From: Candidatus Spyradosoma merdigallinarum
Lineage (GTDB): Bacteria > Verrucomicrobiota > Verrucomicrobiia > Opitutales > UBA953
Reading direction: 5' to 3'
NCBI GenBank assembly: GCA_018713755.1
Contig: DVOG01000016.1
Coordinates: 1 to 35,768, forward strand
Length of the DNA stretch: 35,768 bases
Part shown: one piece after another, positions 1-35,768 of the stretch
Position numbering within the stretch: position 1 is the first letter of the stretch
Layout: each line of letters begins with the position of its first letter
Program-made: the position numbers and the translations under genes
The notes under the pieces: model-generated
Databases searched by the model: none
Told to the model about the DNA's origin: nothing
The model's input: only the letters and a program-made list of their open reading frames with translations

Positions 1-647
1 TTTTCCGCCGCTTCTTTTTCTCCGGGGAAATCGGCGGGAACGCCGTCGGTCGCGTCGCTTCCTTCGTTGACGCGCGGCGCCGTCTCGGGAACGGCTTCGG
101 CGCGCGCGGGAACGGCGGAGGCGATTTTTTCGGCGGCGGCGCGCAGTTCCGCAAGGCGTTTTTCCGCGGCGTCGATTTTCTCGCGAAGCTCCTGCAGCTG
201 CGGCGCGATTTTTTCTCCGACGGCTTCGGGCAGGTTTTCGAAACGCTCGTCGAGCGCGCGGCTGATTTTTCCGAAAAAGTCGTCCAGGTCGTCCGCGATG
301 TCGACGTCGCGCGCGGCGAGTGCGTTTTTCTCGATTTCGTTTTGGCGCTCGGCGAGAGCGGCGATGCGGCGGACGAGCGTTTCTCCGAGCGAGCGCAGAT
401 CCTCGTGGATGACCTGCTGGTTGGCGAGGATTTTGCGCGCGGCTTCGTCGTCCGGCCGCGGCTGCGGCGTTCCCGCGCGCGGCTTTTTCGCTTCGAGAAT
501 GAACGGGAGGGTCGCGCAGATTTGCCCGACGACGAGCACGGCGGCGAGCAGCGTCAGCGTTCCCGCGCCGTGCGTTTCCCGGCTGACGTAAAAGAGCGCC
601 GCCGCGGCCGCCGCGACGAAGATGATGGGGAGAGCGATTTTTTGCAT
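1..647 (-). CDS. Hypothetical membrane protein with coiled-coil region (3' end runs off the window)
   Basis: Not in the ORF track; read by hand from ATG at 647: MQKIALPIIFVAAAAALFYVSRETHGAGTLTLLAAVLVVGQICATLPFILEAKK..., two hydrophobic segments followed by a charged helical region (LQELREKIDAAEKRLAELRAAAEK); no stop seen before position 1. Confidence 0.7.
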   Translation of the reverse strand, partial: MQKIALPIIFVAAAAAALFYVSRETHGAGTLTLLAAVLVVGQICATLPFILEAKKPRAGTPQPRPDDEAARKILANQQVIHEDLRSLGETLVRRIAALAERQNEIEKNALAARDVDIADDLDDFFGKISRALDERFENLPEAVGEKIAPQLQELREKIDAAEKRLAELRAAAEKIASAVPARAEAVPETAPRVNEGSDATDGVPADFPGEKEAAE

Positions 648-765
648 GGCGGAAAACTGCGCGTTCAACGATGCGCGCGCGCGTTCCCGCGGGCAAGTTG
701 AAAATGCGGCGGCGGAAACATTCTTGCCGTTCGAGGAGGGCGCGTTCCCGCGGCGCGATTTTTTT

Positions 766-1785
766 TCAGCTCACGAAGCCGACTTTGCGGTAGACTTTCG
801 CGAGCGTGCGGTTCGCCGTCCGCTGCGCGGTTTCGGCGCCGGCCTTGAGCACGGCGTCGAGGTGGTCTTTTTGCGAAACCAGTTCTTCGTAGCGGTCGCG
901 AATCGGGGAAAGCAGCGCGACGACGGCGTCGGCGACGGCTTTCTTGAACTCGCCGTAGCCTTTGCCGGCGAAGGCGTCCTCGACGGCTTCCGGCGTCGTT
1001 CCCGCGGCGGCGGCGTAAATCGAAATCAGGTTCGTCACGCCGGGCTTGTTTTCGGGATCGCGGCGAATCGAGCCTTCGGAGTCCGTGACGGCGGACATGA
1101 TTTTTTTGCGGATCGCGTCGTTCGAGTCGATGATGTAGACGGTTCCCGCCTGGTTGGGGTCGGATTTCGACATTTTCGCGGTCGGCGTCTGCAGCGACAT
1201 GATGCGCGCGCCGGCTTCTCCGATGAAGGGCTCGGGAACGTTGAAGGTGGGCGAATACGTCGCGTTGAATTTTTCCGCGAGGTCGCGCGTGATTTCCAGG
1301 TGCTGCTTCTGGTCTTCGCCGACGGGAACGACGTGCGCGTTGTAGAGCAGGATGTCCGCCGCCATCAGCGCGGGATAATAGAGCAGGCCGGCGCCGACGG
1401 AAATTTGCTTTTTCGCTTTGTCCTTGAACTGCGTCATGCGCTCGAGCTGTCCGAGCGGGCAAAGGCAGCTGAGCACCCACGCCAGCTCCGTGTGTCCGAT
1501 GACTTGGCTTTGCGCGAACAGCGCGCTTTTCGCGGGATCGAGCCCGCACGCCATGTATTGCGCGAGGCAGGAATACGTGTTGCGCCGCAGGTCCGCGGGA
1601 ACGGTCGGCACGGTGATCGCGTGCTGGTTGGCAATCATGAAGTAGCAGACGAAGTCGTCCTGCATTTTTTTCCAGTTGTGCGCGGCGCCCAGGTAGTTGC
1701 CGAGGTGAAGCCGCCCCGTGGGCTGCATGCCGGTGAGGACGACGGGTTTCTGCCGCGCTGCGGTCTCTGGTTGATTTTCGGACAT
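766..1785 (-). CDS. trpS: Tryptophan--tRNA ligase
   Basis: TGMQPTGRLHLGNYLGA (HIGH-like), YPALMAADIL, VPVGEDQKQHLE, KMSKS. Confidence 0.97.
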   Translation of the reverse strand: MSENQPETAARQKPVVLTGMQPTGRLHLGNYLGAAHNWKKMQDDFVCYFMIANQHAITVPTVPADLRRNTYSCLAQYMACGLDPAKSALFAQSQVIGHTELAWVLSCLCPLGQLERMTQFKDKAKKQISVGAGLLYYPALMAADILLYNAHVVPVGEDQKQHLEITRDLAEKFNATYSPTFNVPEPFIGEAGARIMSLQTPTAKMSKSDPNQAGTVYIIDSNDAIRKKIMSAVTDSEGSIRRDPENKPGVTNLISIYAAAAGTTPEAVEDAFAGKGYGEFKKAVADAVVALLSPIRDRYEELVSQKDHLDAVLKAGAETAQRTANRTLAKVYRKVGFVS

Positions 1786-1898
1786 GGTTTGAAAAAAAAC
1801 GTAGCGCTCATCATGGCGCGCCGCTCGGGATTCCGCAATGAAGAAGCGCGGCGGGAACAGCTCTCGCGGGAGAATGGCGCGTTCCCGCGCAAAAAACG

Positions 1899-1927
1899 TT
1901 TACACGCGCCGCGAATCGTCGCACAAT
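1899..1927 (+). promoter_or_regulatory. Putative sigma70-type promoter for nagA
   Basis: TTTACA, 17 bp spacer, CACAAT, about 46 nt upstream of the ATG. Confidence 0.4.
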
Positions 1928-1973
1928 GAGGACTCATCCCGTTTCTCCCCGAATTCCACGCTTTTATCGTCTT

Positions 1974-3119
1974 ATGAAAACGCTCATCAAAAACGCACAC
2001 GTCATCTCGCCCGGAATCGATCTCGCGGGCGGCTCCGTTCTCGTCGAAGACGGGAAAATCGCGCAGGTCTGCGGCGCCGGCGCTCCCGTGCCCGCGGCGG
2101 ACGAAACGCTCGACGCCGGCGGGCAGATGCTCATGCCGGGCTTCATCGACATTCACTCGCACGGCGCGGGCGGCGCGGACACCTGCGACGGCACGGTCGA
2201 AGCGCTCGAAAAAATCGTCTCCTGCAAAATCAAGGAAGGCGTGACGACCTGGTTGCCGACGACGCTGACGCTCGGCTACGACACGCTCGAGAAGGTGATG
2301 CGCGCCGTCGCCGAATACCGCAAGGCGCCGCGTTCCGTCAAGATTCCCGGCGTCCACCTCGAAGGGCCGTTCGTGAATCCGAAAATGTGCGGCGCGCAGA
2401 ATCCCGACTTTCTCAAAAATCCCGATTACGCGATCGTCGAAAAGCTGAACGCGATCGCTCCCGTGCTTGTGATCACGCTCGCGCCGGAGCTTGAAGGCGC
2501 GACGGACTTCATCGCCAAGGCGACGGCGCTCGGCGTGCGCTGCTCGGCGGGCCACAGCGCTGCGACGCACGCGCAGTTTCTCGCGGCGAAAGCGGCGGGG
2601 CTCGCGCACCTCACGCACTTCTGCAACCAGATGTCGCCGCTGCACCACCGCGAAATCGGGCTGGTCGGCTCCGGTTTCCTCGATTCCACGATCAAGGCGG
2701 AAATGATCTGCGACAAGGTGCACCTTTGCCCGGACATGCTCGCGACGGCGTTCAAGGTGATGACGCCCGAGCGCATCATGATGATTACGGACTCGCTCGC
2801 CTGTTCCGGTTTGCCGGACGGACCGTCGCAGCTCGGCGGACTGCCGATCATGGTCAAAAACGGCGAGGCGCGGCTGATGTCGGGAAATCTCGCGGGATCG
2901 ACGCTGAACTATTCGCTCGGCATCCGCAATATCCGCGAAATCACGGGACTCCCGCTCAGCGAAATCGTCAAGGCGACGTCGTGGAACCAAGCGCAGTCCC
3001 TCGGCCTGCACGACCGCGGAAAAATCGCGCCGGGCTTCGCCGCGGACTTCGTGCTGCTCGGCGAAGACTTCCTCGTCACGAAAGCTTTCGTGGACGGCGT
3101 CTGCAAATTCGAACGCTGA
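1974..3119 (+). CDS. nagA: N-acetylglucosamine-6-phosphate deacetylase
   Basis: PGFIDIHSHG, HLEGPF, GHS, THFCNQM, ITDS, LAGSTL, GFAADFV; start taken at MKTLIKNAHV. Confidence 0.95.
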   Translation: MKTLIKNAHVISPGIDLAGGSVLVEDGKIAQVCGAGAPVPAADETLDAGGQMLMPGFIDIHSHGAGGADTCDGTVEALEKIVSCKIKEGVTTWLPTTLTLGYDTLEKVMRAVAEYRKAPRSVKIPGVHLEGPFVNPKMCGAQNPDFLKNPDYAIVEKLNAIAPVLVITLAPELEGATDFIAKATALGVRCSAGHSAATHAQFLAAKAAGLAHLTHFCNQMSPLHHREIGLVGSGFLDSTIKAEMICDKVHLCPDMLATAFKVMTPERIMMITDSLACSGLPDGPSQLGGLPIMVKNGEARLMSGNLAGSTLNYSLGIRNIREITGLPLSEIVKATSWNQAQSLGLHDRGKIAPGFAADFVLLGEDFLVTKAFVDGVCKFER

Positions 3120-3151
3120 TCGTTCCCGCAGAAAAATCTCCGCATCCTCTC

Positions 3152-3186
3152 CGGCGGGAACACGGTTTCGCGTTCCCGCCGTTTTT
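3152..3186 (+). terminator. Intrinsic terminator-like hairpin made of two inverted motif copies
   Basis: CGGCGGGAAC, 10-nt loop, GTTCCCGCCG, then TTTTT; 32 nt after the nagA stop. Confidence 0.6.
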
Positions 3187-3192
3187 CTCCCG

Positions 3193-4452
3193 ATGAGCAG
3201 AAAAGCGTCCGTCATCATCGTCGGCGGCGGCGGCCGCGGCACGATTTATTCCCGTCTCCTGCGGGAAATGCCCGAGAAGGCGAAAGTCGTCGCCGTCGCC
3301 GAGCCGCGCGAATTTTTTCGCCGACGCATCGCGGAAATGCACGACGTTCCCGCGGAGAACGCCGCGGCGGACTGGCGGGAGCTCGCCGCGCGCCCGAAGT
3401 TCGCGGACGCGGTCGTCATCGCCACGCAGGACCGCATGCACCTCGAGCCGACGCTCGCTTTCTCCGAAAAAAAATACCACATCCTGCTGGAAAAGCCGCT
3501 CGCGCCCGATCTCGACGGCTGCCGCCGCCTGGTCGAGGCCGTCGCCCGCAGCGGCGTAATTCTTTCCGTCTGCCACGTGCTGCGCTACACGGAGTTCACG
3601 CGCGCGCTCAAGGCGCTGCTCGACGCGGGAACAATCGGGAAAATCGTTTCCGTGCAGCACTTGGAGCCGGTCGGGCACTGGCGTTTCGCGCACTCGTTCG
3701 TGCGCGGGAACTGGCGGCGCGAAAGCGAGTCTTCGCCTGTGCTGCTCGCGAAATCCGCGCATGACATCGACTGGATCCGCTACATCGTCGGCTCGCCCGC
3801 GGCGCGCGTTTCGTCGTTCGGGTCGCTGATGTTTTTCAGGCAAGAAAATCGCCCGGCGGGAGCGTCGCCGCGCTGCGCGGATTGCGCCGTCGCGGGAACG
3901 TGCCCCTACGACGCCGTGAAATTCTACACGGAGCGTCTGCGCGCGGGAACGCTCGACGCCTACGTCGAAAGCGTGACGGGAACGCCGACGCAGGAAAGTT
4001 TGCTCGAAAACCTGCGCGTCGGCCCCTACGGGCGCTGCGTGTTCGCGTGCGACAACGACGTCGCCGACCATCAGGTCGTCAACGTCGAGTTCGAAAGCGG
4101 CGCGACGGCGTCGTTCACGCTCGCGGGCTGCTCGAAATACGGCGACAGACGCATCACGATTTTCGGTTCCCTCGGCGAAATTTCCGGCGACGGAGAAAAT
4201 ATTTTTCTCAGTTCTTATCTCGCGGGAACGACGGAGCGCGTGCCCGTTCCCGCGCCGCGCATCGCCGAAGACCGCCACGGCGGCGGCGATTTCAACCTCC
4301 TCGACGCTTTCGTCGAGGCCGTGCTTTCGGGCGACGCGCGCGGAATCGTTTCCGGCGCGGATGTTTCCCTCGAAACGCACGCGCTCGCGTTCGCCGCGGA
4401 AGCCGCGCGCCGCGAAAACCGCATCGTCGAAATGCGCGATTTTCTTCGCTGA
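3193..4452 (+). CDS. Gfo/Idh/MocA family NAD(P)-dependent oxidoreductase
   Basis: IIVGGGGRG Rossmann motif, DAVVIATQDRMH, ILLEKP, HSFVRGNWR, HDIDW, HGGGD. Confidence 0.92.
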   Translation: MSRKASVIIVGGGGRGTIYSRLLREMPEKAKVVAVAEPREFFRRRIAEMHDVPAENAAADWRELAARPKFADAVVIATQDRMHLEPTLAFSEKKYHILLEKPLAPDLDGCRRLVEAVARSGVILSVCHVLRYTEFTRALKALLDAGTIGKIVSVQHLEPVGHWRFAHSFVRGNWRRESESSPVLLAKSAHDIDWIRYIVGSPAARVSSFGSLMFFRQENRPAGASPRCADCAVAGTCPYDAVKFYTERLRAGTLDAYVESVTGTPTQESLLENLRVGPYGRCVFACDNDVADHQVVNVEFESGATASFTLAGCSKYGDRRITIFGSLGEISGDGENIFLSSYLAGTTERVPVPAPRIAEDRHGGGDFNLLDAFVEAVLSGDARGIVSGADVSLETHALAFAAEAARRENRIVEMRDFLR

Positions 4453-4489
4453 CGTTGCCGCGCGCGCGTTCCCGCGCGGCGTCGATTTT

Positions 4490-5059
4490 ATGACCAAGAT
4501 GAATTTCGGAAACGAGCACGCCGGAAAGATTCGCCTGGAAGACGTCGGGAAATCGGATTGGCGGGAGTTCAAAACGCAGGCGCAGCGGGCGCTGACCGCG
4601 GCCGTCGCGGAAAAATTCGGCTTCCGCGGGCTCGTTCCGCTCGAAGAGGATTTTCGGGAGTTGCTGAAAAAGCAAGGACTTCATCTGAAGTTTTTCGTCG
4701 CGGGAACGGAAAAAATCGGCGGCGCAGCCGTGCTGTCCGACGAAAAGACGCGGCGCTGCTTCGTCGAGCTGTTTTTTCTGCGGGAGGAATTCCAAGGGCG
4801 CGGCTTGGGCGTCGCCGCTTGGAAGTCGCTTGAAGACGCGTTCCCGCGGACGAGGCTCTGGAAACTGTGCACGCCGTATTTCGAAAAACGGAACATTCAT
4901 TTTTACGTGAACAAATGCGGCTTCCGCATCACGGAATTCGTGAACGCCCGGCACAGAAGCGCCGACGAAAACTGCAACAGCCCCGCCGGCGAAGAAGGGC
5001 CTTGGCGCGACGAGCTTCTCGTCTTCGAAAAACCGACGCCGCGTCCCGGCATCGCGTGA
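4490..5059 (+). CDS. GNAT family N-acetyltransferase
   Basis: LFFLREEFQGRGLG acetyl-CoA motif, TPYFEKRNIHFYVNKCGF. Confidence 0.85.
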   Translation: MTKMNFGNEHAGKIRLEDVGKSDWREFKTQAQRALTAAVAEKFGFRGLVPLEEDFRELLKKQGLHLKFFVAGTEKIGGAAVLSDEKTRRCFVELFFLREEFQGRGLGVAAWKSLEDAFPRTRLWKLCTPYFEKRNIHFYVNKCGFRITEFVNARHRSADENCNSPAGEEGPWRDELLVFEKPTPRPGIA

Positions 5060-5073
5060 ACCCGCGCGTCGCG

Positions 5074-7171: not shown

Positions 7172-8068
7172 ATGAACGGCGGAGAAAAAGACGGCGGCGG
7201 CGCGTTTCGGCCGCGCGTTCCCGCGGGAACGGCGGCGCGGGACTTGCCCGTCGCGCTCACCGTCGCCGGCTCGGATTCCGGCGGCGGCGCGGGCATTCAG
7301 GCGGATTTGCTGACGTTCGCCGCGCACGGCGTTTTCGGGACGACGGCGATTTCCGCGCTCACGGCGCAGAATCCGCGCGGCGTTTCCGGCGTCCATCCCG
7401 TTCCCGCCGCTTTCGTGCTCGAACAGGCGGAGCAGGTTGCCCGCTTTTTCCCCGTTTCCGCGGCGAAGACGGGAATGCTCGCCGACGCGGAAATCATTTC
7501 CGCCGTCGCCGATTTTTTCTCGGCGCATCGGGAAATTCGGCTCGTCGCCGATCCCGTGATGATCGCGACGAGCGGCGCCCGGCTGATCGACGAAGACGCG
7601 GTTTCCGCGCTGCGGGAACGCCTGCTGCCGCTCGCGTCGCTCGTCACGCCAAATCTCGACGAAGCGGAAGTCCTGCTCGGAGAAAAGTTTTCGTGGCGCG
7701 GGAACGCCGCCGCCGAGGCGGAGGAAATGCCGCGCTCGGCGCAGCGGCTCGCCGACGCGCTCGGCGTTCCCGCGCTGCTCAAGGGCGGGCACGGCGCTGG
7801 CGCGAAGATTCTCGACGTGCTCGCGTTTCCGGGAGACGCCGCGTCCCGTTTCGCGGAAGTTCACGCGCGTATCGAAGAGACGGATACGCACGGGAGCGGC
7901 TGCACGCTTTCCGCGGCGGTCGCCGCGAATCTCGCGCTCGACGCGGGGAAGAATTTCGGAGAAAAAGAGCGGCTCGTCCGCGCCGTTTCGCGCGCGGCGG
8001 CATACGCGGCGCGCGGCATCGCGTTCCCGCTGCGCGTCGCCGGCGCGCGGTTCATCGCGCATTTGTGA
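7172..8068 (+). CDS. thiD: Hydroxymethylpyrimidine/phosphomethylpyrimidine kinase
   Basis: ALTVAGSDSGGGAGIQADL, KTGML, DPVM, TPNLDEAE, LKGGH, THGSGCTLSAA. Confidence 0.95.
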   Translation: MNGGEKDGGGAFRPRVPAGTAARDLPVALTVAGSDSGGGAGIQADLLTFAAHGVFGTTAISALTAQNPRGVSGVHPVPAAFVLEQAEQVARFFPVSAAKTGMLADAEIISAVADFFSAHREIRLVADPVMIATSGARLIDEDAVSALRERLLPLASLVTPNLDEAEVLLGEKFSWRGNAAAEAEEMPRSAQRLADALGVPALLKGGHGAGAKILDVLAFPGDAASRFAEVHARIEETDTHGSGCTLSAAVAANLALDAGKNFGEKERLVRAVSRAAAYAARGIAFPLRVAGARFIAHL

Positions 8069-9165: not shown

Positions 9166-9606
9166 CTAAGAGACGAAAAGGACGATCGCCGCCGCGACGT
9201 CGCGCGCGTGCGTGAGGGAAATCAGAACGCGCGCGCCGCCGCGTTCCCGCAGCGCTTTTTCCGCGCGGGCGGAAAGCTGCGGCACGGGAGCGCCGCGCTC
9301 GTCGCAGAGCACGCCGAAGTCCGTGAGCGAAAATTCCGCGCCGACGCCCGTGCCGAGCGCCTTGGAAAACGCCTCCTTCGCGGCCCAGCGCGCGGCGAAC
9401 GACGCCCATTGCGCGTTCCCGCGGGAACGGCACAGCGCGGTTTCTTCCGGCGTGAAAACTTTTTCCGCGAAGACGGTTCCGCTGCGTTCGAGCGCGCGCC
9501 GCACGCGGGCCGCGGACTCGATGTCGATGCCGGCGGCGACGACGTTCGTTCCCGCAGGAATCGGCGGGAACGCGGGAAAAATTCCGCTCTCTTCCGGCGT
9601 ATCCAA
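9166..9606 (-). CDS. acpS: Holo-[acyl-carrier-protein] synthase
   Basis: [33 protein letters not shown]; lies downstream of pdxJ; TTG start is uncertain. Confidence 0.92.
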
Positions 9607-10470: not shown

Positions 10471-11523
10471 TCAGCGGCCGCGGTAGCCTCCGGCGTTTCG
10501 CCGCTGTTCGGCTTCTTCCCGCTTTCTTATCGCGTATTCGAGGTTCGCGCGTTCCCGCGCGAGATTCTCCGCTTTCCCTCTCGGAACGCCTTTCCGCTGA
10601 AGCTCCTCGGTTTTTTGTCGAACGGTCTGCTCGTAGGCGAGCCTTTCGGCGTTCGAGTCGTTCCCGTTCGCCTTGGCGCGAAGAATCTGAAGCTCCGCCT
10701 CTTCTTCTCTCACGGCTTCCGCCGCTTTCTTTTCGTATTCAAGGCGCAATTGTTCCCGCGCGCGCGTCGTTGCTTCCTGAAGGGAAAAACCGTTTTTTTG
10801 CAGTTCCTCGACTTTTTGGCGCTCTTCGCGGGCGAGTTCGAGTCTTTGAGCCAAGGCGTGATTCCCCGCGGCTTCCGCGCGCAGGATGCGCAGGTCTTCT
10901 TCGACTTCTTCCCGCGAGGCGCGAATCTTCTCTTCGGATTCGTCCTTCGCTTTCTTTGCCCGCTTTTCGCTCAGCTGCTTTTCAAGATCGATGTATTTCT
11001 GCACGGATGCGTCGACTTGCGCAAGCGACACGCCCGCCGCGAGAAATTGTTCCCGCAGTTCCGCGCGGAGAAGCTCTTCTTTGATTTCGGAAAGCTTTTC
11101 TTCACCGGCGATCTCCGCCTGCATGAGCTGCACTTTTTCCCGCAAGGCTTTCCGCGCGGAAGCTGCCGCGGCTTTGATCGACTCGATGCTTTTCCGCGTG
11201 GACAGAAGTTCCTTCGCGCGGGCGGCTTCTTCTTCCGAAAGCGTTTCGGCGCGTGAAAGCTCCGTCAGTTCCCGCTCGAGGGCTTCGAGACTTTCCGCGC
11301 CGACGAGCGCGAGCTCGACGCTGATTTTTGCGGACGCGCTTTGCGCGGCGGCGACGGAAAGTTCAGCGCGCGTCTTTTTCAGTTCTTCGGCGGCGATGTT
11401 TTCCGAAATTTGGTTCATTTCCCGCGGAATGCGTTCCGCGTCCTGCGCGGAGAAAGCTTGCGCGGCGCCGAGGCTGAGCAGAGAAACGAATAGCGCGTTT
11501 TTAGAGATTTCAGAGACGTTCAT
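10471..11523 (-). CDS. Putative exported coiled-coil protein with ~67-aa internal repeats
   Basis: Signal-peptide-like N-terminus (KNALFVSLLSLGAAQAFSA), then E/K/R/A/L-rich helix; repeats starting EEDLRILRAEAAGN and EAELQILRAKANGN. Confidence 0.7.
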   Translation of the reverse strand: MNVSEISKNALFVSLLSLGAAQAFSAQDAERIPREMNQISENIAAEELKKTRAELSVAAAQSASAKISVELALVGAESLEALERELTELSRAETLSEEEAARAKELLSTRKSIESIKAAAASARKALREKVQLMQAEIAGEEKLSEIKEELLRAELREQFLAAGVSLAQVDASVQKYIDLEKQLSEKRAKKAKDESEEKIRASREEVEEDLRILRAEAAGNHALAQRLELAREERQKVEELQKNGFSLQEATTRAREQLRLEYEKKAAEAVREEEAELQILRAKANGNDSNAERLAYEQTVRQKTEELQRKGVPRGKAENLARERANLEYAIRKREEAEQRRNAGGYRGR

Positions 11524-11750
11524 AACGCCGAAAATCAAAAGAAAATTCGGGCGCGGAGTCAAGAATACGAGAAACCCGCGTAACGCCTGGCGAATTTCGG
11601 CAGATTGCCGCAACAGCAATGGGGGATGGGATTGCGGAAGGCGGGCAGAGGGCTGAAAATCATTTCTGCACGGATTGAAGCAAGAGAACAGTTCCTAATC
11701 TCCGCCGGCCGTTTTATCCGTTAAAAGAAAACTGCCTTTGCCGCGGGTTG

Positions 11751-12422
11751 TTATGACACGCCTTTTTTCTTGAGATTTCTGTCGTTCTTTTCCGACAGCG
11801 AAAGCAGGACATCTGCGGGAGTTTTGAATAGGTAGTTTGCCGGTATTTCTTGCGCTTCCGCATTTCCCCACGCGGCAAGTCCGAAATCCAGCCCGGCATT
11901 TTTCGCACACTGACTGTCGTAAACGGTATCTCCTATATAAACGGCATCCCCGGCATGTATGTGGGCTGTGTTCAGATAGGTCAGCAAAGGATCAGGAAAA
12001 GGTTTGGGACGAGCGGCGTCTTCCACGCATATCACGGTGCCGAAATAGTCGGACAACGCAAAAAACGGGGCGGCAAAATCAGCCGCGTATTCGTTTCGGG
12101 TCTTGGATGTGACGATGCCCAGTTTGCAGCCGTTCGTTTTCAAGCTGCTCAATAACTCCGGGATGCCGTCGAAGAGCCGGATGCGGGATTTGTATTTCAG
12201 CAGATGCTCATTCCACCTGTCATTGGCGCGTTCCGTATCCGTTATGCCCAATTTGCGCAAGGCCACACTGCCCGGTATTCCAAGCGCGAATTTCAGTTCA
12301 TGCCTTCCGATGTCCTTATGCCGCATTTCCCGCACGGTATCTTGCAGGCTTCGCAGTATGGCTTCTTCCGTATCGATCAGCGTCCCGTCGATATCGAATA
12401 GGATATGCTTGTACTTTCCCAT
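11751..12422 (-). CDS. HAD family hydrolase (phosphoglycolate phosphatase/pyrophosphatase-like)
   Basis: LFDIDGTLIDT motif I, GIVTSK motif II, KPFPDP motif III, YIGDTVYD motif IV. Confidence 0.92.
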   Translation of the reverse strand: MGKYKHILFDIDGTLIDTEEAILRSLQDTVREMRHKDIGRHELKFALGIPGSVALRKLGITDTERANDRWNEHLLKYKSRIRLFDGIPELLSSLKTNGCKLGIVTSKTRNEYAADFAAPFFALSDYFGTVICVEDAARPKPFPDPLLTYLNTAHIHAGDAVYIGDTVYDSQCAKNAGLDFGLAAWGNAEAQEIPANYLFKTPADVLLSLSEKNDRNLKKKGVS

Positions 12423-12434
12423 CGCCGCCAGCTG

Positions 12435-12609
12435 TCAGATTCCGTTATCAATTTTCTTTATCACCCGGCAAGGATTGCCCGCCGCCGCGCAGTTGGCGGG
12501 AATGGAACAGGGACACTTTCTTGTGCGCAAAACCGTTTTTGCAATCTTCGGATTTTCGCTTTCGATGAAAGGTTCTCCCGCCAAGCATTTTCTCGTATTC
12601 CGTTTTCAT
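12435..12609 (-). pseudogene. Internally deleted, frameshifted maltose/galactoside O-acetyltransferase remnant
   Basis: MKTEYEKML, one extra base, then AGEPF...IPANCAAAGNPCRVIKKIDNGI*; matches the N- and C-terminal ends of Maa/LacA-family proteins, hexapeptide core missing; 175 nt (58 codons + 1). Confidence 0.7.
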
Positions 12610-12622
12610 AGTCTCTGCATTT

Positions 12623-13255
12623 TTAATCGAACTCCACCTGCCAGTTCTTGTCCGAACGGGCGGCAAAGCACATTTCTATTTGTTGATAACTGTTCTTGTC
12701 CACCGACAAGGGAGGCAGTTCGTTCAACCCGAAATAACCGCTTCCGACGGTTTCGATATTCGGATGGAAGCATCCGCCTTTCACCTCGCAAAGCACGAAT
12801 ACCTTGCACACATTGTAAGCGTATGGAGGCTGGTTGTGCAAGTTGCGGTCGTGCAGAGCGATGACCCGCACCGCTTCCACGTCAAGTCCGGCTTCTTCCT
12901 TCACTTCCTTGACGGTATTCGACTTCACGGTCTCCATCACATCCACCCATCCGCCGGGCAGGGACCAAGTCCCGTCATTTTCTTCTACCAACAAAATCTT
13001 ATCATCCTTGAAAATAGCTGCGCGGGTATCGAGCTTGGGAGTCTGAAATCCCGTCTCATTGCAAAACAAATCTTTCACTTGTGCCAGAGGAAGCTCGCCT
13101 TGCAGGCTGATTATCTCGGCGGCGATTTCCCGGACGCGTTCAAACCGCTCCTTGTCAAAAGGGTCTTTTGTGTAAGTCAGTCCCGCTTGCGCAATGAACT
13201 GAAGTTCTTTGGCCCATTCAAGCCATCGGCGTTCCTGCTCTCGTTTATTCATCAT
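12623..13255 (-). CDS. NUDIX hydrolase (ADP-ribose pyrophosphatase-like, with N-terminal extension)
   Basis: WAKELQFIAQAGLTY, GFQTPKLDTRAAIF, Nudix box LPGGWVDVMETVKSNTVKEVKEEAGL. Confidence 0.93.
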   Translation of the reverse strand: MMNKREQERRWLEWAKELQFIAQAGLTYTKDPFDKERFERVREIAAEIISLQGELPLAQVKDLFCNETGFQTPKLDTRAAIFKDDKILLVEENDGTWSLPGGWVDVMETVKSNTVKEVKEEAGLDVEAVRVIALHDRNLHNQPPYAYNVCKVFVLCEVKGGCFHPNIETVGSGYFGLNELPPLSVDKNSYQQIEMCFAARSDKNWQVEFD

Positions 13256-13287
13256 CGTTGCGGATCATTTAATTTTGAAAAAATAGG

Positions 13288-13319
13288 AAAAATTCCCGCG
13301 CGCTTTTTTGCGGCGGGAA
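13288..13319 (-). terminator. Putative terminator after the Rsm22-like gene, motif-based stem
   Basis: Minus strand TTCCCGC-CGCAAAAAAGCGC-GCGGGAA followed by TTTTT. Confidence 0.45.
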
Positions 13320-13334: not shown

Positions 13335-14522
13335 CTACGGCGCGTATTTTTTCAGCGTTCCCGCGAAGCGGAAAAGCCCGTTCCCGCCGAGCGGCGAGAG
13401 CGTTCCCGCAAGAACGGCGACGTCGCCGCGCTCCCACTCCGCCGCGATTTTTTTGACTTTGCTTTTTGAGAGGCCGCGCGTCGGAATTTCCGCGGAAATC
13501 TTTTCTCCGCGCGGGTTGACGCCGACGAAGCGCAGGCAGCTCTTCGTCGCTTCCAGCGGGGAGACGAGGCGCACGACGTCCGCGGCGCCTTCGGGAACGG
13601 CGAACGTCCTCCCCGGCGTTTTTCCGAGCGCGCACCAGGAAAACTTGAGGACGGAGAGATCGCGGAAAAGCGTGCGGTTCAGGAAAGCGAGGGTTTCCGG
13701 CGGCGTCCATTTCCGCGCTTCGTGATTCCAGAAAATGCCTTCGCGCAGCAGCGGGCACGGGTGCGCGCCGAGTTCGGGAGCGAGGCGGAAAAACGGCTTT
13801 CCGGGATTCGCCGCGAACGCGTCGCTCGCGCGCTGGAGGCGTTCCGCGGTGATTTTCAGCGCGGGTTCGAGAGCGACGAGCGCGCCGCGTTCCGCGAGCA
13901 GCGGCGCGAGGCTTTTCAAAAACGGCGCAGCATCGGCGGGCGCGGGAACGGCTTCGTTCAAACTCCATCCGAGCAGAATCAAATCCTGCGGCGGCAGCGC
14001 AAGATCCGCGGGAACTCCTTTGCGCAAATCGGCGCGGACGGTTTCGACGGCGACGTTCCCGCCGGCCGCTCCCGCCGCCGCGAACGCTCTTGCCGCGTCG
14101 AGCGCGGCGCGGGAACGGTCAAGCGCCGTAATGAGAATTTTTCTTTCCGGGAAAATCTCCCGCAGTTCCGCCGCCGCCGCGAAGCCGCAGGGTGCGGCGC
14201 CGCTGCCGAGATCGAGCACGCGCAGCGGGGCGGGAGCGTCTTCCGGCGCGCGCCCGCAGAGCCCGAAAAGCCTGCGCAGGGCGAAACGCGCCCGCGCAAA
14301 GCTTTGCGGGAAGAAAAACAGTCCGTAGGCGGCGAGCAGGCGCGGCTCGCTCATGTAGTCGCGGAATTTGCCGTCGCGGGGACGTTCCGTCGTGAAAAGG
14401 TCGCTGAGCGCGCGGACGTCGGTGCGCGCCTTTTCGAGCAGCGTTTCCGTGTCCGTTCCCGCGGGAACGGACAGCGCCGCGCGGGTTTTTTCGAGCCAGA
14501 AAATTTCGGACGGAGACGGCAT
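13335..14522 (-). CDS. SAM-dependent methyltransferase, Rsm22-like family
   Basis: AYGLFFFP, VLDLGSGAAP (SAM motif I), DLILLGWSLNE, LVALEPA, HPCPL. Confidence 0.75.
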   Translation of the reverse strand: MPSPSEIFWLEKTRAALSVPAGTDTETLLEKARTDVRALSDLFTTERPRDGKFRDYMSEPRLLAAYGLFFFPQSFARARFALRRLFGLCGRAPEDAPAPLRVLDLGSGAAPCGFAAAAELREIFPERKILITALDRSRAALDAARAFAAAGAAGGNVAVETVRADLRKGVPADLALPPQDLILLGWSLNEAVPAPADAAPFLKSLAPLLAERGALVALEPALKITAERLQRASDAFAANPGKPFFRLAPELGAHPCPLLREGIFWNHEARKWTPPETLAFLNRTLFRDLSVLKFSWCALGKTPGRTFAVPEGAADVVRLVSPLEATKSCLRFVGVNPRGEKISAEIPTRGLSKSKVKKIAAEWERGDVAVLAGTLSPLGGNGLFRFAGTLKKYAP

Positions 14523-16824: not shown

Positions 16825-16867
16825 AAAAAGCGTTCCCGCGGGAAATTTCCCGGCGGGAACGCTTTTT
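16825..16867. terminator. Bidirectional terminator whose stem is an inverted pair of the dispersed motif
   Basis: AAAAAGCGTTCCCGC ... GCGGGAACGCTTTTT between the convergent glcD-like gene and rpmA. Confidence 0.85.
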
Positions 16868-16890: not shown

Positions 16891-17145
16891 TTATTTCGCG
16901 GCGGCGGGCTCGATCGAGACTTTGCGATGCGCTTTGTCCCAAACGACCGTGCCGTCCTTGAGCGCGAACAGCGTGTAGTCGCGGCCCATGCCGACGTTGA
17001 GCCCGGCGCGCATTTTCGTGCCGCACTGCCGGATGAGAATGCTGCCGGCGCGGGCGAACTGCCCGCCGTAAAGCTTGACGCCGCGGCGCTGCGCGTTCGA
17101 GTCGCGTCCGTTGGAAGAAGTTCCTCCGCCCTTATGATGTGCCAT
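16891..17145 (-). CDS. rpmA: 50S ribosomal protein L27
   Basis: [34 protein letters not shown]; follows rplU. Confidence 0.96.
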
Positions 17146-22994: not shown

Positions 22995-25145
22995 ATGCGC
23001 TTCAAGCTCACCCTTCTGCTCCTCGTCGCCAACATCGTCACGTTCGGCTTCATTTGGCGCAACGCCGGCGGGAACGCCGAGACGGAAATTTCCGCGCAGG
23101 CGTTCTTTTCGGCGGACATTTCCGAAATCGCCGTTTCCGGCGCGAACGGCGCGGCGGCGTATGCGCTGGAGCGGCGCGGGCGCGACTGGTTCATGACGCA
23201 GCCGTTCGCGTGGCGCGCCGACGCGTTCGCCGTCAGCCGCCTGCTCAACGAACTGCGCTTTCTCGACAGCAGCATCGGTTTCTCCGTGGAGGAGGCCGCC
23301 GACGCGGGCAGCTCGCTCGCGAGCTACGGGCTGGAAGAAACTTCGGCGAAGGTCAGCGTGACGGATTCGGCGGGAACGCACGAGCTGCGGCTCGGGAAAA
23401 CGACGCCGGACGGACGCTGCGTCTACGTGCTTTCTCCCGACGGGAAAGTCATCGTTCCCGCGCCGCGGTCGCTGTTCAACGCGGTCGCGCAGACGCCGGA
23501 CGACCTGCGCAGCCGCGAAGTCTTTTCCATGCGGCCTTACGAAATCCGCGCCGTCACGGTGCGCACGGCTTTTTCCGGCGGGCGCGAGCAGCGCACGGGG
23601 CTGGTGCGCGTCCGCGGGAACGAGGAGTCGCCCGACGCGGCGCAGTGGCGCTTCGAGACGCCCGTCGCCGCCGCCGCCGATTCCCGGCTCGTGGAAAAGC
23701 GACTCGGCGAGCTCGCTTCGCTCGGCTACGTCCGCATCGTTTCCGGGGACGCGGGGGATTCCGACGCCTACGGGCTGAAAACGCCGGGAATGCGCTTCAC
23801 GCTCGACGCGGCGGACCGCAGCCGCACGCTGCTCGTCGGAAACGCAGATCCGAGCGACGCCTCCGGCGAGACGCGCTTCGCGAAGCTCGAAAACAATCCC
23901 GCCGTCTTCACCGTTCCCGCGGCGCCCGTCGAGGCCTGGCGCGACGCGGCGCGGGAAATGCGCGACCCGTATTTTCTGCGCTTCGATCCCGCGGAGCTCA
24001 TCGGCATCACGATTCACGACGGGAACGACGCGCTCGTGATTCACCGCATGAACGTCGCCCGCGGGAAGGCGGGCGAAGCCGCGGAGGACGCTTCCGTTCC
24101 CGCCGTCGCCGCGGCTCCGGACGTGGGCGCCGTCGCCGAACCGCGGCCGGAGATTTTTTCGGAAAAATCCGCCGCCGCCGCCAATCCCGTCTACAATTCG
24201 TGGCAGATGCCCGTCGCTCCCGGCTCGAGCGTGACGGCGGCGACGAAGGTCGAGCCCGAAGTCATCGCCGAGCTGATCGAAAAGCTGCGGAATCTGCGCG
24301 CGGTGCGCGCTCCGGGCGCGGACGACCCCGCGCTGTCCGCCGCCCGGCGCCGGCTCTGCGACGCGTTCGTCGCGGACGTCGCGACGCCGGAAGACATTTC
24401 TCAGATGAAGTTCAACACGCCGCTGCGCATCGTCGAGCTCGAATTCGCTTCGCCGGACGGGAAGACGCGCTCGCAGACGCTCACGATCGCGCCGGCGGCG
24501 GAAGAGGGCACGCCGATTCACGCCAAGACGGGAACGTCGATTTATTCGATCACGCCTGAAATTCTCGACGATCTCGACGCGCACGCGGCGCATTTCCGCG
24601 ACCGCCTCGTCTTCACGCTGCCCGAGGGCGGGAAAATCGTCGGGCTGAAGCTTTCCGAGCTCGACGGGCATCTCGAAAAGACGCTGCTGCGGGAAGCCTG
24701 TCCCGAAGGCGTCGCGGATTGGGCGGAAGAGCTCGAAAAGAACGCGGAGCCGTTCCCGCAGGCGCTCGCGAAGCTGATTCGCGCGACGTCGACGGTCGTC
24801 GCCGTTTCGTATCTGCCCGAACCGTTTTCGCGGAGCTTCGAGGACGACGCGTATTTGGGCATGGGCGTTCCCGAGCCGTGGCGCTACCGTGTCGACGTCG
24901 ACGTGCTTCTCGCCGACGGCGAAAAGAACACGCCGGGAAAAACGGAGACGGTGACGTATTTTCTGACGCGGCGGCTCGGCGGGACGACGCAGCTCGCCGG
25001 TTCGCCGGCGCAGGACTGCATTTTCCGCATTCGTCAGGATTTCATCGACGCCATGCACGCGCTGACGTTCAACCGTTCGGGCATCATTCCCGAAATCAGC
25101 GATCCCGACGGCATTTCCGCCGACAACATCAGGCCCGCGGAATGA
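22995..25145 (+). CDS. DUF4340-like periplasmic protein
   Basis: N-terminal anchor; repeated units W.MTQP..WRAD / W.FETP..AAAD, YGL, LRLG..; usual neighbour of GldAFG-like clusters. Confidence 0.7.
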   Translation: MRFKLTLLLLVANIVTFGFIWRNAGGNAETEISAQAFFSADISEIAVSGANGAAAYALERRGRDWFMTQPFAWRADAFAVSRLLNELRFLDSSIGFSVEEAADAGSSLASYGLEETSAKVSVTDSAGTHELRLGKTTPDGRCVYVLSPDGKVIVPAPRSLFNAVAQTPDDLRSREVFSMRPYEIRAVTVRTAFSGGREQRTGLVRVRGNEESPDAAQWRFETPVAAAADSRLVEKRLGELASLGYVRIVSGDAGDSDAYGLKTPGMRFTLDAADRSRTLLVGNADPSDASGETRFAKLENNPAVFTVPAAPVEAWRDAAREMRDPYFLRFDPAELIGITIHDGNDALVIHRMNVARGKAGEAAEDASVPAVAAAPDVGAVAEPRPEIFSEKSAAAANPVYNSWQMPVAPGSSVTAATKVEPEVIAELIEKLRNLRAVRAPGADDPALSAARRRLCDAFVADVATPEDISQMKFNTPLRIVELEFASPDGKTRSQTLTIAPAAEEGTPIHAKTGTSIYSITPEILDDLDAHAAHFRDRLVFTLPEGGKIVGLKLSELDGHLEKTLLREACPEGVADWAEELEKNAEPFPQALAKLIRATSTVVAVSYLPEPFSRSFEDDAYLGMGVPEPWRYRVDVDVLLADGEKNTPGKTETVTYFLTRRLGGTTQLAGSPAQDCIFRIRQDFIDAMHALTFNRSGIIPEISDPDGISADNIRPAE

Positions 25146-30455: not shown

Positions 30456-31161
30456 ATGAAAAAATGCATCACGATTGCGGCGCTTCTCGCCGCGGGAACG
30501 GCGTTCGTCAACGCGGCGGATCTCACGTCGACGTTCGCGGGACAAACAAACGGACAGCATCGCGCTGAACGTCGCCGGCATTGACGGCGTCACGGGCACG
30601 GTCGCTCTCGGCGGGGACGCCTCCGCTTTCCAGACCTCCGGCGCGGCGGGCGGAGACAGCGCGTTCTTCTCCCCGGACATAAACGTCGGACAAAGCGCGG
30701 GGAACACGTGGACGGCGACGTTCACCTACGATTTCGGCGCCGAGTCGCTCACCGTCGATTCGATCGCGCTGGATCTCGGCATCTTCAATGCTTCCGGCGA
30801 TTGGCAGGGTGCGAACGTTGACCGCTATTTCGACTTTTCGGTGACGCTGAGCAACGGCACCGATTCCGTGGAATACTCGGCGGAGAATATCATGATTTCC
30901 GGCGTTGTCGACGGATACGGCAACGGTCTTAACACGCACTATTCGCTCGACCTCAGCGGCAGCGAGCTGGAGCTTTCCGGGGACAGCGTCACGCTGACGC
31001 TGACGGTTTCGCGGGGTGAATCGAACACGCTCGGCTGCTTCATCGGGCTGAACAGCGTCACGCTCAAGGACGCCGCCGCCGTTCCGGAGCCGTCGGCGTT
31101 CGGCCTGCTCGCGGGACTGGGCGCGCTGGCGCTCGTCGCTTCGCGCCGCCGCCGCAAATGA
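30456..31161 (+). pseudogene. PEP-CTERM sorting domain protein, frameshifted at a CAAA duplication (30543-30550)
   Basis: Signal peptide MKKCITIAALLAAGTAFVNA in one frame; mature domain and VPEPSAFGLLAGLGALALVASRRRRK in another; removing one CAAA joins them (..FAGQTDSIALNV..). Confidence 0.85.
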
Positions 31162-31213: not shown

Positions 31214-31255
31214 AGGCGTTCCCGTCGGGACTTTCCGCGGGAACGCCTTTTTTTT
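31214..31255 (+). terminator. Intrinsic terminator whose stem is an inverted motif pair
   Basis: AGGCGTTCCCG ... CGGGAACGCCT followed by a T run, downstream of the PEP-CTERM gene. Confidence 0.85.
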
Positions 31256-32124: not shown

Positions 32125-32267
32125 ATTTTTCCCGGCGAATTTTTCGCTTTGCCTTCCGGAAGTTTTTCTCCGAAAATCGCTGTCCTGCATTCGTCATCGC
32201 ATCACGACTGACTCAACGCAACAAGAGACAACCCGAGAAACGAAACAACCCAAGCCACACAAAAAAA

Positions 32268-33368: not shown

Positions 33369-33405
33369 GCGTTCCCGCGGGGCGCGGCGGAATTTTCGGC
33401 GAGGC

Positions 33406-34305: not shown

Positions 34306-34336
34306 ACGGGATTTTCGCGGGAACGGGATTTCCCGC

Positions 34337-34365
34337 TTGACTGCCCGCGCCTGAAAAAACAAAAT
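34337..34365 (+). promoter_or_regulatory. Putative promoter of rpmF-plsX
   Basis: TTGACT, 17 bp spacer, CAAAAT, about 40 nt upstream of rpmF. Confidence 0.5.
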
Positions 34366-34404
34366 CATCAGTTCATTTTAATTCCTTAACAGAAAGCTTC
34401 AGTC

Positions 34405-34581
34405 ATGGGACAACCGAAACGCAAGCAGTCCAAACGCCGCAGCGCCCTGCGCCGCGGAGCCAACCAGTTCAAAGCGCCTTTGCTCGCGAAGGACGCCGAC
34501 GGTTCCGCCATCCGTCCGCATCGCGTCAATCCCGCCACGGGAACGTATCGCGGCCGCAAGGTCGTCGAAGTCGACCTTTGA
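34405..34581 (+). CDS. rpmF: 50S ribosomal protein L32 (cysteine-free form)
   Basis: Not in the ORF track; hand translation MGQPKRKQSKRRSALRRGANQFKAPLLAKDADGSAIRPHRVNPATGTYRGRKVVEVDL*; directly upstream of plsX. Confidence 0.93.
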   Translation: MGQPKRKQSKRRSALRRGANQFKAPLLAKDADGSAIRPHRVNPATGTYRGRKVVEVDL

Positions 34582-34649
34582 TTTCTTTTTCCGCTTTGCG
34601 CGGAAAAAGTTTGTTTTCGGGAGCGCATTCGGCGTAATATTTCCGCATC

Positions 34650-35717
34650 ATGGAAACGGACGCGCAGACATACCGCATCGCGGTGGATTGCATGGGCGGC
34701 GACAAGGGGCCCGCGGAAGTCGTCCAGGCGGTCGCGCTCGCGCTGAAAAAAATCGGCGAAGGCGACCGGCTCATCCTCGTCGGGCAGGAAAAAGTCATCC
34801 GCGACGCGATGCGCGCCGCGGGACTGACGTCTCACCCCCGCGTTGAAATCCGGCACGCGCCCGACGTCATCGGCATGGACGACAAGCCGATGCAGGCGAT
34901 GAAGTCGAAGAAAAATTCGTCGATGATCGTCGCGTTGGAAATGCTGAAGGCGGGCGAAGTCGACGCTGTGGTCTCGACGGGCAACACGAAAGTGATGGTC
35001 GGGGCGGGAACGCTGAAGGTGCGTTTGCTCCCCGGCGTGCAGCGCCCGGCGCTTTCGGCGATTCTTCCGCGCAAGAAAGGCTATTCCGTCGTGGCGGACG
35101 TCGGCGCGAACCCGGAAACGACGCCGGAGCAGCTCGTGCACAACACGGTGCTGGGTTCGCTCTATTCCATCGCCGTGCTGGGCACGACGAAGCCGAAAGT
35201 CGGTCTGCTGACCGTCGGCACGGAGGAAGGCAAGGGCGGAGACCGCATCAACCGCGCTCACGCGTATCTCAAAGCGCTCAACGAGCGTTTCGACTGGTTC
35301 GAATACGTCGGTCCCGTGGAAGGCTTCGACGTTTTCCAGAGCGACGTCGACGTCATCGTGACGGACGGCTTCACCGGCAACATCCTGATCAAGACGATCG
35401 AAGGACTCGTCTACATGATCAAGGATCTCGTCGGCGAAAAAGTGAAGCGCAATCCTCTTTATCTCGGCGCGGGCCTCGTGCTGCTGCCGCTGCTGCGGAA
35501 TCTGAAGTCGCACCTGCGTCCGGAGCGTTTCGGCGGCGCGCCGCTGCTGGGGCTGAACGGCCTCGTGATGAAGGCGCACGGCTCGAGCAACCGCTACGGC
35601 ACCTGCGCCGCCATCGTGATGGCGCACAACGCCTGCTCGAAGGCGATGAACAAAAAGGCGTCGGAGCTGCTCGCCGTCGCGAACGAGGTCGTCGCCGAAG
35701 TGCAGCAGGGCGCCTGA
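34650..35717 (+). CDS. plsX: Phosphate acyltransferase
   Basis: IAVDCMGGDKGP, STGNT, RPAL, DVGAN, GTEEGKG, DVIVTDGFTGNI, GGAPLLGLNG, KAHGSS. Confidence 0.97.
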   Translation: METDAQTYRIAVDCMGGDKGPAEVVQAVALALKKIGEGDRLILVGQEKVIRDAMRAAGLTSHPRVEIRHAPDVIGMDDKPMQAMKSKKNSSMIVALEMLKAGEVDAVVSTGNTKVMVGAGTLKVRLLPGVQRPALSAILPRKKGYSVVADVGANPETTPEQLVHNTVLGSLYSIAVLGTTKPKVGLLTVGTEEGKGGDRINRAHAYLKALNERFDWFEYVGPVEGFDVFQSDVDVIVTDGFTGNILIKTIEGLVYMIKDLVGEKVKRNPLYLGAGLVLLPLLRNLKSHLRPERFGGAPLLGLNGLVMKAHGSSNRYGTCAAIVMAHNACSKAMNKKASELLAVANEVVAEVQQGA

Positions 35718-35768
35718 CTTTTCCCGCGTTCCCGGGAAAAGAAAAAGAGCGGCGGGATTTTCGTTCCC

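What the first reader, a model, noticed from the sequence alone, without database searches (positions are those of the whole stretch)
34..35734. Candidate new DNA uptake sequence: CGTTCCCG/CGGGAACG at roughly 50-fold excess
Seen: a hand count gives about 150 exact CGTTCCCG or CGGGAACG 8-mers (23 in the first 5 kb, 25 in the next 5 kb), often extended to GCGTTCCCGC. At about 66% GC, roughly 3 are expected in the whole window. The motif is non-palindromic and orientation-balanced (12 forward, 11 reverse in the first 5 kb). Known: short, non-palindromic, strand-neutral motifs at around 1 per kb, lying in core genes and terminator stems, define the Neisseriaceae DUS (GCCGTCTGAA) and Pasteurellaceae USS (AAGTGCGGT); cyanobacterial HIP1 (GCGATCGC) is palindromic. 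This motif matches none of them. Inference: a self-DNA recognition signal for natural transformation in a probable Verrucomicrobiota/Opitutales lineage where I know of none. Alternatives are a nucleoid-protein site, a methylation or repair-driven motif, or a recombination signal.
Basis: partly seen in the sequence, partly recalled or inferred. Interest (0 to 1): 0.92.

Follow-up and report, generated by a model that had tools for sequence, protein, structure and literature searches.

The report
Genome-saturating self-DNA tag in Spyradosoma
One eight-letter DNA word, CGTTCCCG, is written thousands of times on both strands through the genes of one genus of uncultured gut Verrucomicrobia and is nearly absent from its relatives; it is likely a self-DNA tag spread by biased recombination, read most likely by the genus's remodelled RecBCD enzyme or else by a DNA-uptake receptor, neither yet tested.

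Summary
Real and genome-wide. The window has 151 sites (76/75); the 1.6-Mb genome has 6,397 (4.0/kb), 7.8-fold above a protein-preserving shuffle, filling 84% of coding positions where the protein allows the word. It is unpolarised, sits in 194 of 294 terminator-like hairpins, is kept between species above background, and is enriched in all 19 genomes of the genus (Ca. Spyradosoma; four weakly, three of them apparently decaying) and in none of 287 other Opitutales sampled. The pattern matches DUS/USS, and pilus, ComEC, DprA and ComM genes are present. But those genes are family-wide, no ComEA was found, and no receptor-like pilin stood out. RecC is present in 19/19 genus genomes but clearly in none of 9 sister-genus genomes (one weak, one faint hit), and its Chi-reading segments carry fixed replacements not seen in 136 other RecC representatives. 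Strains are mosaic. Best reading: a recombination-driven self tag (about 0.8), read as a Chi-like site by RecBCD (0.45) or as an uptake sequence (0.35). KOPS, codon bias and a conserved methyltransferase are disfavoured. No function was tested. Not found in print in four searches.

The parts
35..35734 (.). 151 exact copies of CGTTCCCG/CGGGAACG (76 +, 75 -); 125 inside called genes, 26 outside; preferred context g-CGTTCCCG-C-g
16831..16861 (.). Inverted motif pair forming a hairpin flanked by A and T runs, between the convergent FAD-oxidase gene (15322-16755 +) and a short gene (16891-17145 -): likely bidirectional intrinsic terminator
   Evidence: -32.1 kcal/mol, z -4.8
31217..31245 (+). Inverted motif pair plus T run downstream of gene 30475-31161: likely intrinsic terminator
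   Evidence: -31.3 kcal/mol, z -5.5
9547..9572 (.). Inverted motif pair with 10-nt gap; hairpin no more stable than shuffles
   Evidence: z -1.0
7216..7231 (.). Abutting inverted pair CGTTCCCG-CGGGAACG (16-bp palindrome); also at 9414-9429 and 14454-14469; 47 such pairs in the genome
10667..13313 (.). Largest motif-free gap of the window (2.65 kb; GC about 0.50-0.54 over 11.5-13.5 kb), with HAD hydrolase and NUDIX genes: likely recently acquired DNA
22995..25145 (+). DUF4340 gene used for the ortholog comparison: 10 sites here, 1-17 in genus orthologs, 0-1 in six outgroups; lineage-specific sites coincide with amino-acid differences

Best explanation
CGTTCCCG saturates the genomes of one highly recombining genus and is likely a Chi-like recombination signal read by the genus's own remodelled RecBCD, which would spread it by biased gene conversion. 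Shown: the word is an 8-mer with a strict TCCCG end and a tolerant CGT end, unpolarised, filling 84% of synonymous opportunities; RecC is present across the genus and carries clade-fixed replacements in the segments that read Chi in E. coli, with the R142/D705 pair kept; strains are mosaic. Inferred: RecBCD would chew into broken or incoming double-stranded DNA until it meets the word, then load RecA on a strand that still carries it, so alleles with the word would win exchanges slightly more often. A weak per-site bias (log-odds shift 3.8) is enough to fill silent sites, bend poorly constrained residues and colonise terminator stems, opposed by protein constraint and by selection against hairpins inside genes. 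The result would be a self/non-self mark: own DNA is rescued within a few hundred bases, foreign DNA is degraded further.
For: RecC (PF04257) in 19/19 genus genomes; among 9 genomes of sister genera one weak hit (6.7e-22), one faint, seven none; RecB and RecD homologues in G000. Against the E. coli RecC structure sequence and the Chi-affecting residues listed in PMC5959072 section 18, the clade has S39N, G41A, M42Q, D136W, Q137R, L139Q and G704W nearly fixed in 45 homologues. Fixed replacements hit 7 of 15 conserved columns in Chi segments vs 22 of 194 elsewhere (Fisher p 0.0014). Of 136 other RecC representatives, 134 have D/E at the D136 column, none W, and none has A-Q at 41-42. Control: ComEC has 1 such replacement in 50 columns. 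Conservation stops at the 8-mer edge, and RecC's fold spans 8-9 nt (PMC4614115 passages). Unpolarised Chi exists in Pseudomonas (1119 vs 1122). Known Chi words are at most 1.8x expected in G000. Same-strand neighbours do not repel each other. Strain mosaicism: clustered SNPs and four-gamete patterns.
Against: No Chi is known at this density: 4.0/kb vs 0.2-0.3/kb, and no Chi is known to fill terminators; the only precedent for the whole pattern is DUS/USS. The RecC-motif link rests on one origin. 53 RecC-positive Opitutales outside the genus lack the word; their tunnel residues were not examined. The weakly enriched genomes G001, G002, G013, G014 still have an open RecC frame, so the decay is unexplained. 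A directional SNP excess 5' of CGTTCCCG (212 vs 149) comes from one strain pair and is not robust (shift-test p 0.03-0.48 over 8 settings), and three cross-species pairs show none. The RecC outgroup is more distant than the ComEC outgroup, and a minor pilin shows 22 of 123 replacements against a small outgroup. RecC could have adapted to a word that another force had already made abundant. The conversion-drive step is my inference.
Confidence: 0.45

Rival explanations
1. The word is a DNA uptake sequence: a surface or periplasmic receptor of the type IV pilus/ComEC machine prefers fragments that carry it, and uptake bias followed by recombination drives it through the genome, as in Neisseriaceae and Pasteurellaceae.
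For: Every genomic hallmark is met: strand-neutral, inverted pairs in terminators, motif-encoded tripeptides enriched 1.7-3.4x (about 2x reported for DUS/USS, PMC2817400 passages), lower density in conserved proteins (rho -0.32, n 495) and low-GC or phage genes, 10-mer count 2455 comparable to DUS dialect counts of 2245-4549 (PMC3630211 passages), graded recognition like USS. ComEC 41/41, DprA 9/9 genomes tested, ComM 25/25, PilB/PilT/PilC and 7 pilins present. Strains recombine. A small PilA-derived pilin is full-length in 19/19 genus genomes; a PilW-like pilin has a genus-conserved DRxRR loop.
Against: No ComEA found in 8 genus genomes; the only hits were the approximately 800-aa Tex-like protein and the DprA helix-hairpin. 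The machinery is family-wide and so does not explain the genus limit. The pilins examined are net acidic or neutral, the small pilin has diverged counterparts in three sister-genus genomes, matches no solved structure at E<=0.001 and is nearly identical in dense G007 and decayed G013/G001. No saturation between same-strand neighbours, whereas two USS within 100 bp do not add uptake (PMC7811141 passages). No dialect seen across lineages with 39% protein identity.
Confidence: 0.35
2. The word is the site of an abundant chromosomal protein (nucleoid-organising, loading or self-marking factor), kept by weak selection at each site.
For: Graded binding-site-like profile with flank preferences; kept above background between species (0.67-0.97 vs 0.42-0.64); spacing within genes somewhat more even than random.
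Against: No periodicity in pair distances; sites are gained and lost freely and 12 of about 94 differ between two strains; the evenness comes from avoidance of inverted pairs in genes; no candidate protein found (the genome-wide comparison covered only 59% of one relative).
Confidence: 0.12
3. A HIP1-like ratchet: a methyltransferase marks the word and methyl-directed repair converts near matches into it.
For: Density like HIP1; MutS is present; several methyltransferase genes occur in G000; HIP1 is linked to methylation and transformation (PMC13756078 passages).
Against: C5 family found in 10 of 19 genus genomes and not in G000; N6/N4 family not found in dense G004, G005, G007; D12 family in 2 of 5; MmeI-like gene in 2 of 5. 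G004 and G005 have none of the three Pfam families. Differences from the word span all 8 positions and 19 substitution types. Type I, Eco57I, BREX and phosphorothioate systems were not surveyed across the genus.
Confidence: 0.06
4. A by-product of codon or peptide bias, a terminator repeat, or a KOPS-type polar signal.
For: GC-rich genome; the word is frequent in terminators; consecutive sites lie on the same strand slightly more often than half (0.53).
Against: 7.8x over the synonymous shuffle, occupancy 80-87% in all six frames vs 3-17% for four control words; same word at gene GC of 44-66%; 78% of sites are coding; 1102:1040 on skew-oriented contigs while a separate word family (CGAGGGCG 72:10; GAGCAGGG 122:7 in G013) is strongly polar.
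Confidence: 0.02

Closest known systems
DNA uptake sequences: DUS of Neisseriaceae (ComP receptor) and USS of Pasteurellaceae (ComN/PpdA predicted receptor)
   Same: Thousands of non-palindromic, strand-neutral copies; inverted pairs in terminators; motif-encoded peptides enriched; rarer in conserved and in foreign genes; limited to one clade; critical core with tolerant flanks.
   Different: Unrelated sequence; another phylum; 8-mer at 4/kb with 84% occupancy; no AT-rich flanks in coding sites; no dialects seen; no ComEA and no receptor found; uptake untested.
Chi sites of RecBCD (E. coli GCTGGTGG; Pseudomonas GCTGGCGC)
   Same: Non-palindromic 8-mer with a five-base strict part and a three-base tolerant part; enriched in resident genes; host has RecBCD; unpolarised as in Pseudomonas.
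   Different: 12-20 times denser; 17-fold over order-2 expectation rather than a few-fold; fills terminators and alters proteins; RecC Chi segments rewritten; activity untested.
HIP1 (GCGATCGC) of cyanobacteria
   Same: Very high density in coding and non-coding DNA, conserved above background, function debated and linked to DNA exchange.
   Different: Not palindromic; no conserved methyltransferase found; no periodicity seen; one genus rather than a phylum.
KOPS/SRS (FtsK/SpoIIIE orienting sequences)
   Same: Non-palindromic 8-mer.
   Different: No polarity; a different word family (AGGGCG, GAGCAGGG) is the polar one in this genus.

Membership tests
DUS/USS | Strong genome-wide over-representation of a short non-palindromic word on both strands | tested here: met
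DUS/USS | Inverted pairs in intrinsic terminators | tested here: met
   194 of 294 terminator-like hairpins carry the word, 103 in both arms (own scan, no shuffle control); 303 close pairs vs 198 expected
DUS/USS | Proteome distortion; scarcity in conserved and foreign genes | tested here: met
DUS/USS | Complete competence gene set | tested here: inconclusive
   ComEC, DprA, ComM, pilus ATPases, PilC and pilins present; secretin found in G003 and G014, not in G000; ComEA not found in 8 genus genomes; ComF not searched
DUS/USS | Sequence-specific receptor (ComP- or ComN-type pilin) | tested here: inconclusive
   Two candidates folded; neither is clearly receptor-like
DUS/USS | Uptake or transformation depends on the word | not testable with these tools
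   needs an isolate
Chi (RecBCD) | Host encodes RecBCD | tested here: met
   RecC 19/19; RecB and RecD homologues in G000, G007, G009, G013
Chi (RecBCD) | Non-palindromic 5-8-mer over-represented in resident genes | tested here: met
Chi (RecBCD) | Leading-strand polarity (E. coli type; not universal) | tested here: not met
   chi2 85.8, df 68; 1102:1040 and 305 of 587. Absent in Pseudomonas Chi too
Chi (RecBCD) | RecC tunnel suited to this word | tested here: inconclusive
   Chi segments rewritten and fixed, R142/D705 kept; which word is read cannot be computed
Chi (RecBCD) | Orientation-dependent nuclease switch and RecA loading at the word | not testable with these tools
   needs enzyme; the indirect SNP asymmetry test was inconclusive
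HIP1-type palindromes | Palindrome | tested here: not met
   sequence
HIP1-type palindromes | Cognate methyltransferase conserved with the word | tested here: inconclusive
   none of four families conserved; other families not surveyed
KOPS | Near-complete replichore polarity | tested here: not met
   with a polar word as internal positive control

The most novel reading that the evidence does not exclude
A gut bacterial genus carries a RecBCD with a rewritten Chi pocket that reads CGTTCCCG, and Chi-biased gene conversion alone has driven the site to one per 250 bp, rewriting codons, amino acids, terminators and even a CRISPR repeat. A cytoplasmic recombination enzyme would then produce the signature so far ascribed only to DNA uptake sequences, and other 'orphan' iterated motifs could have the same cause.
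Probability: 0.4. Interest if true: 0.95.

Novelty: new variant of a known kind. Interest (0 to 1): 0.86.

Why it matters
Either leading reading is new. If it is an uptake sequence, it is a third independent origin, outside Proteobacteria, in a lineage with no ComEA found. If it is a Chi site, it is by far the densest known and shows that a repair enzyme can drive a word into a proteome. The genus supplies a natural experiment (a dense lineage whose sister clade appears to be losing the word) and a directly testable protein: RecBCD can be expressed and assayed without culturing the organism. That makes the old question of why genomes accumulate such words, by selection or by drive, testable in a new system.

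Tried and rejected
Dialects: 20-57 kb samples of four weakly enriched genus genomes and nine other genomes, and 1.23 Mb of G013, showed no replacement word. Lost-gene search: 59% of G013 was held; the synteny and broken-gene screens gave no candidate, so the cause of the decay stays open. RecC sequences could not be tied to the dense and decayed genomes, so tunnel differences between them are untested. Small pilin as receptor: Foldseek gave no match at E<=0.001 (best FimU, E 0.07). PilW-like pilin: best match Thermus TTHA1219, Z 10.5, rmsd 3.2, 152 aligned, which shows fold only. Family f17 has the 9-mer about 2-8x over the reversed control, but RecC was found in only 6 of 11 and polarity in G096 was not significant (p 0.16, first 100 of 659 sites). 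Viral collection: 50 loci with an inverted pair, none denser than 1.2/kb; two CRISPR spacers had no match; tail-sheath relatives were distant. RNA runs were contigs with flat cover and gave no evidence on expression. Flank divergence was symmetric between species. Apparent saturation disappeared for same-strand pairs once overlaps and gene effects were controlled. The sigma-70/terminator scan of 20 kb found no excess of terminators over shuffles (39 vs 36.6); its loop limit misses the long motif hairpins. Two papers asked for were not held, so partial activity of E. coli Chi variants and the role of comE1 in H. influenzae are not used. No supplements were read.
Full report
Observation. The window holds 151 exact sites, 76 forward and 75 reverse, against 2.5 expected from base composition. 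It is contig C86 of a 1.6-Mb, 92%-complete assembly with 6,397 sites, 4.0 per kb; the 40 sparsest contigs still have 1.3-3.3 per kb. I called genes with my own hexamer model (1,382 genes, 87.7% coding). Coding sequence has 4,990 sites versus 640 after synonymous shuffling and 212 after codon-order shuffling. Of 5,963 coding positions where the protein permits the word, 4,990 (84%) use it, 80-87% in each of six frames; four control words reach 3-17%. Peptide patterns it encodes are 1.7-3.4 times enriched, AGT and VPA five times. Intergenic density is 7.1 per kb, coding 3.6.

Anatomy. Single-base variants in the first three positions are often still enriched (up to 10-fold); variants in TCCCG are mostly near or below background, apart from CGTTTCCG at 2-4-fold. 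Flanks prefer G at -1 and C at +8, with no AT-rich arms in coding sites. There is no polarity: chi2 85.8 on 68 contigs, 1102:1040 on skew-oriented contigs, and 305 of 587 in stretches of relatives, while another word family (CGAGGGCG 72:10; GAGCAGGG 122:7 in G013) is strongly polar and looks like the KOPS of this genus. Density peaks just after stop codons; 194 of 294 terminator-like hairpins from 1,231 gene ends contain the word, 103 in both arms; two in the window fold with z near -5. Inside genes, inverted pairs under 100 bp are 11-30% rarer than expected, and same-strand pairs are independent. Density falls with protein conservation (rho -0.32, 495 orthologs) and in low-GC and phage genes; the window's 2.65-kb motif-free gap is low in GC.

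Distribution. All 18 other genomes of the genus are enriched: 14 at 2.6-4.5 per kb, three at about 0.65, one at 0.29; six genomes of sister genera have 0.03-0.09. Among 301 Opitutales genomes the 9-mer is enriched only in the 14 of this genus; the 287 others have at most 0.07 per kb. The genus is Ca. Spyradosoma by the title of an 80%-identical ortholog record and by protein names; NCBI places it in Opitutia. The species occurs in chicken or bird gut runs (17 of 24 listed runs hold half of the sampled words or more). On a one-gene quick tree the three 0.65 genomes are sister to dense G007. In dense pairs the word is retained in 0.67-0.97 of sites versus 0.42-0.64 for GC-matched 8-mers; among the three weak genomes retention is 0.32-0.85 versus 0.41-0.51, on 13-25 sites per comparison, and 22 of 26 of their aligned sites are shared with G007. 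With synonymous variants enriched in G013, this reads as decay after the force relaxed. Differences span all eight positions and 19 substitution types, and flanks are not conserved, so the outcome is favoured, not one mutational route. Between two strains 12 of about 94 sites differ: each site is weakly held.

Recombination. Strain contigs are mosaic: SNP counts per 300 bp are over-dispersed in four of five blocks; one contig has 13 of 29 differences in 310 bp (only 40 of 434 rows were listed); four-gamete patterns appear among listed SNPs (17171 vs 19510; 3829 vs 3933). This supports frequent allelic exchange but not its route.

Uptake reading. ComEC is in 41 of 41 genomes, DprA in all 9 distinct genomes tested, ComM in 25 of 25; PilB, PilT, PilC and seven pilins are in G000. 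All are shared with motif-free genera. ComEA was not found in 8 genus genomes. A 127-residue PilA-derived pilin is full-length in 19 of 19 but has diverged counterparts in three of nine sister genomes, is not basic, and is almost identical in G007 and the decayed clade. A PilW-like pilin has a genus-conserved DRxRR loop. Published DUS counts (2,245-4,549; PMC3630211 passages), terminator pairing (PMC12616744 passages) and tripeptide doubling (PMC2817400 passages) match the pattern here. Two USS within 100 bp do not add uptake (PMC7811141 passages), which fits less well with independent same-strand sites.

Chi reading. RecC is in 19 of 19 genus genomes, weakly in G019, faintly in G305 and not found in seven other sister-genus genomes; G020 has AddAB-like genes instead. 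In the order it is patchy, 67 of 301, and the 53 carriers outside the genus lack the word. Aligned to E. coli RecC, 45 homologues at 35% identity or more replace S39, G41, M42, D136, Q137, L139 and G704 with nearly fixed N, A, Q, W, R, Q and W, and also differ at Q38, T40, Q44, L64 and W70, while D133, L134, R142 and D705 are kept. Most of these are residues reported to affect Chi recognition (PMC5959072 section 18; PMC4614115 passages). Fixed replacements hit 7 of 15 conserved columns in these segments versus 22 of 194 elsewhere (p 0.0014). None of 136 other representatives (the rest of the best 150) has W at the D136 column or A-Q at 41-42. I take this clade to be the genus from two named hits; the taxonomy of its most distant members is unknown. 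Polarity is not required for Chi (PMC8022716 passages). Against: known Chi densities are 0.2-0.3 per kb; the link is one origin; RecC frames are open in the decayed genomes; the directional SNP test was inconclusive.

Methylation. No methyltransferase family tested tracks the word; other families were not surveyed. HIP1 background is from PMC13756078 passages.

Mechanism. The occupancy shift is 3.8 log-odds units, what a weak per-site bias gives in a large recombining population (inference). The shared claim, a self tag maintained by biased recombination, I put at about 0.8. I rank RecBCD (0.45) slightly above an uptake receptor (0.35) because it is the only candidate reader whose presence and binding surface change with the word; the uptake reading keeps the advantage of precedent, and the two could coexist.

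Literature. No paper in the library holds the word in this sense: whole-word search for four forms gave one unrelated paper; searches for uptake sequences with Verrucomicrobia, with HIP1 and with k-mer/GTDB screens gave nothing on this genus. The five papers naming Spyradosoma were seen as listings only; the held part of PMC8035907 gave no passage; PMC1939737 was seen as passages. Subscription papers and supplements were not seen. Two earlier AI reports on other genomes of this genus reached the uptake reading; they are not independent support, and the lines shown do not mention RecBCD.

Noticed in passing
G000:C154:1-6531 and C166:1-440: Type V-A-like CRISPR locus (1282-aa Cas12a-like gene, cas4, cas1, cas2; names recalled from the sequences, not scanned). 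The 5' end of its 36-nt repeat reads GTTCCCG, seven bases of the motif; the large gene has 13 sites.
   Followed up: partly
G000:C22, C154, C166 arrays: None of 34 CRISPR spacers contains the word; 3.2 expected at genome density.
   Followed up: partly
G000 and G013, genome-wide: Strongly polar word family AGGGCG / GAGCAGGG (122:7 in G013), likely the KOPS-type signal of the genus.
   Followed up: partly
G013 (L238-L322): Abundant AT-rich heptamer-like repeats (AGATTAA, AGAGCTTA type), hundreds of copies in 1.23 Mb.
   Followed up: no
G000 genome-wide: CTAG (0.05 of expectation), GTAC (0.27) and GGCC (0.39) are strongly avoided.
   Followed up: no
Opitutales family f17 (e.g. G185, G213, G226): CGTTCCCGC about 2-8 times above the reversed control in all 11 genomes, at no more than 0.07 per kb; cause unknown.
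   Followed up: partly
L062:5664-8897, L063:1183-4165: Pilin operon and pilB/pilC are almost free of the word and lower in GC, like highly conserved or highly expressed genes.
   Followed up: partly
window 10667-13313: Low-GC, motif-free island with HAD hydrolase and NUDIX genes, probably recently acquired.
   Followed up: partly
G000:C166:422-8964: Phage tail-like genes (sheath, tube, tape measure by appearance) with 1.3 sites per kb next to a CRISPR array.
   Followed up: partly
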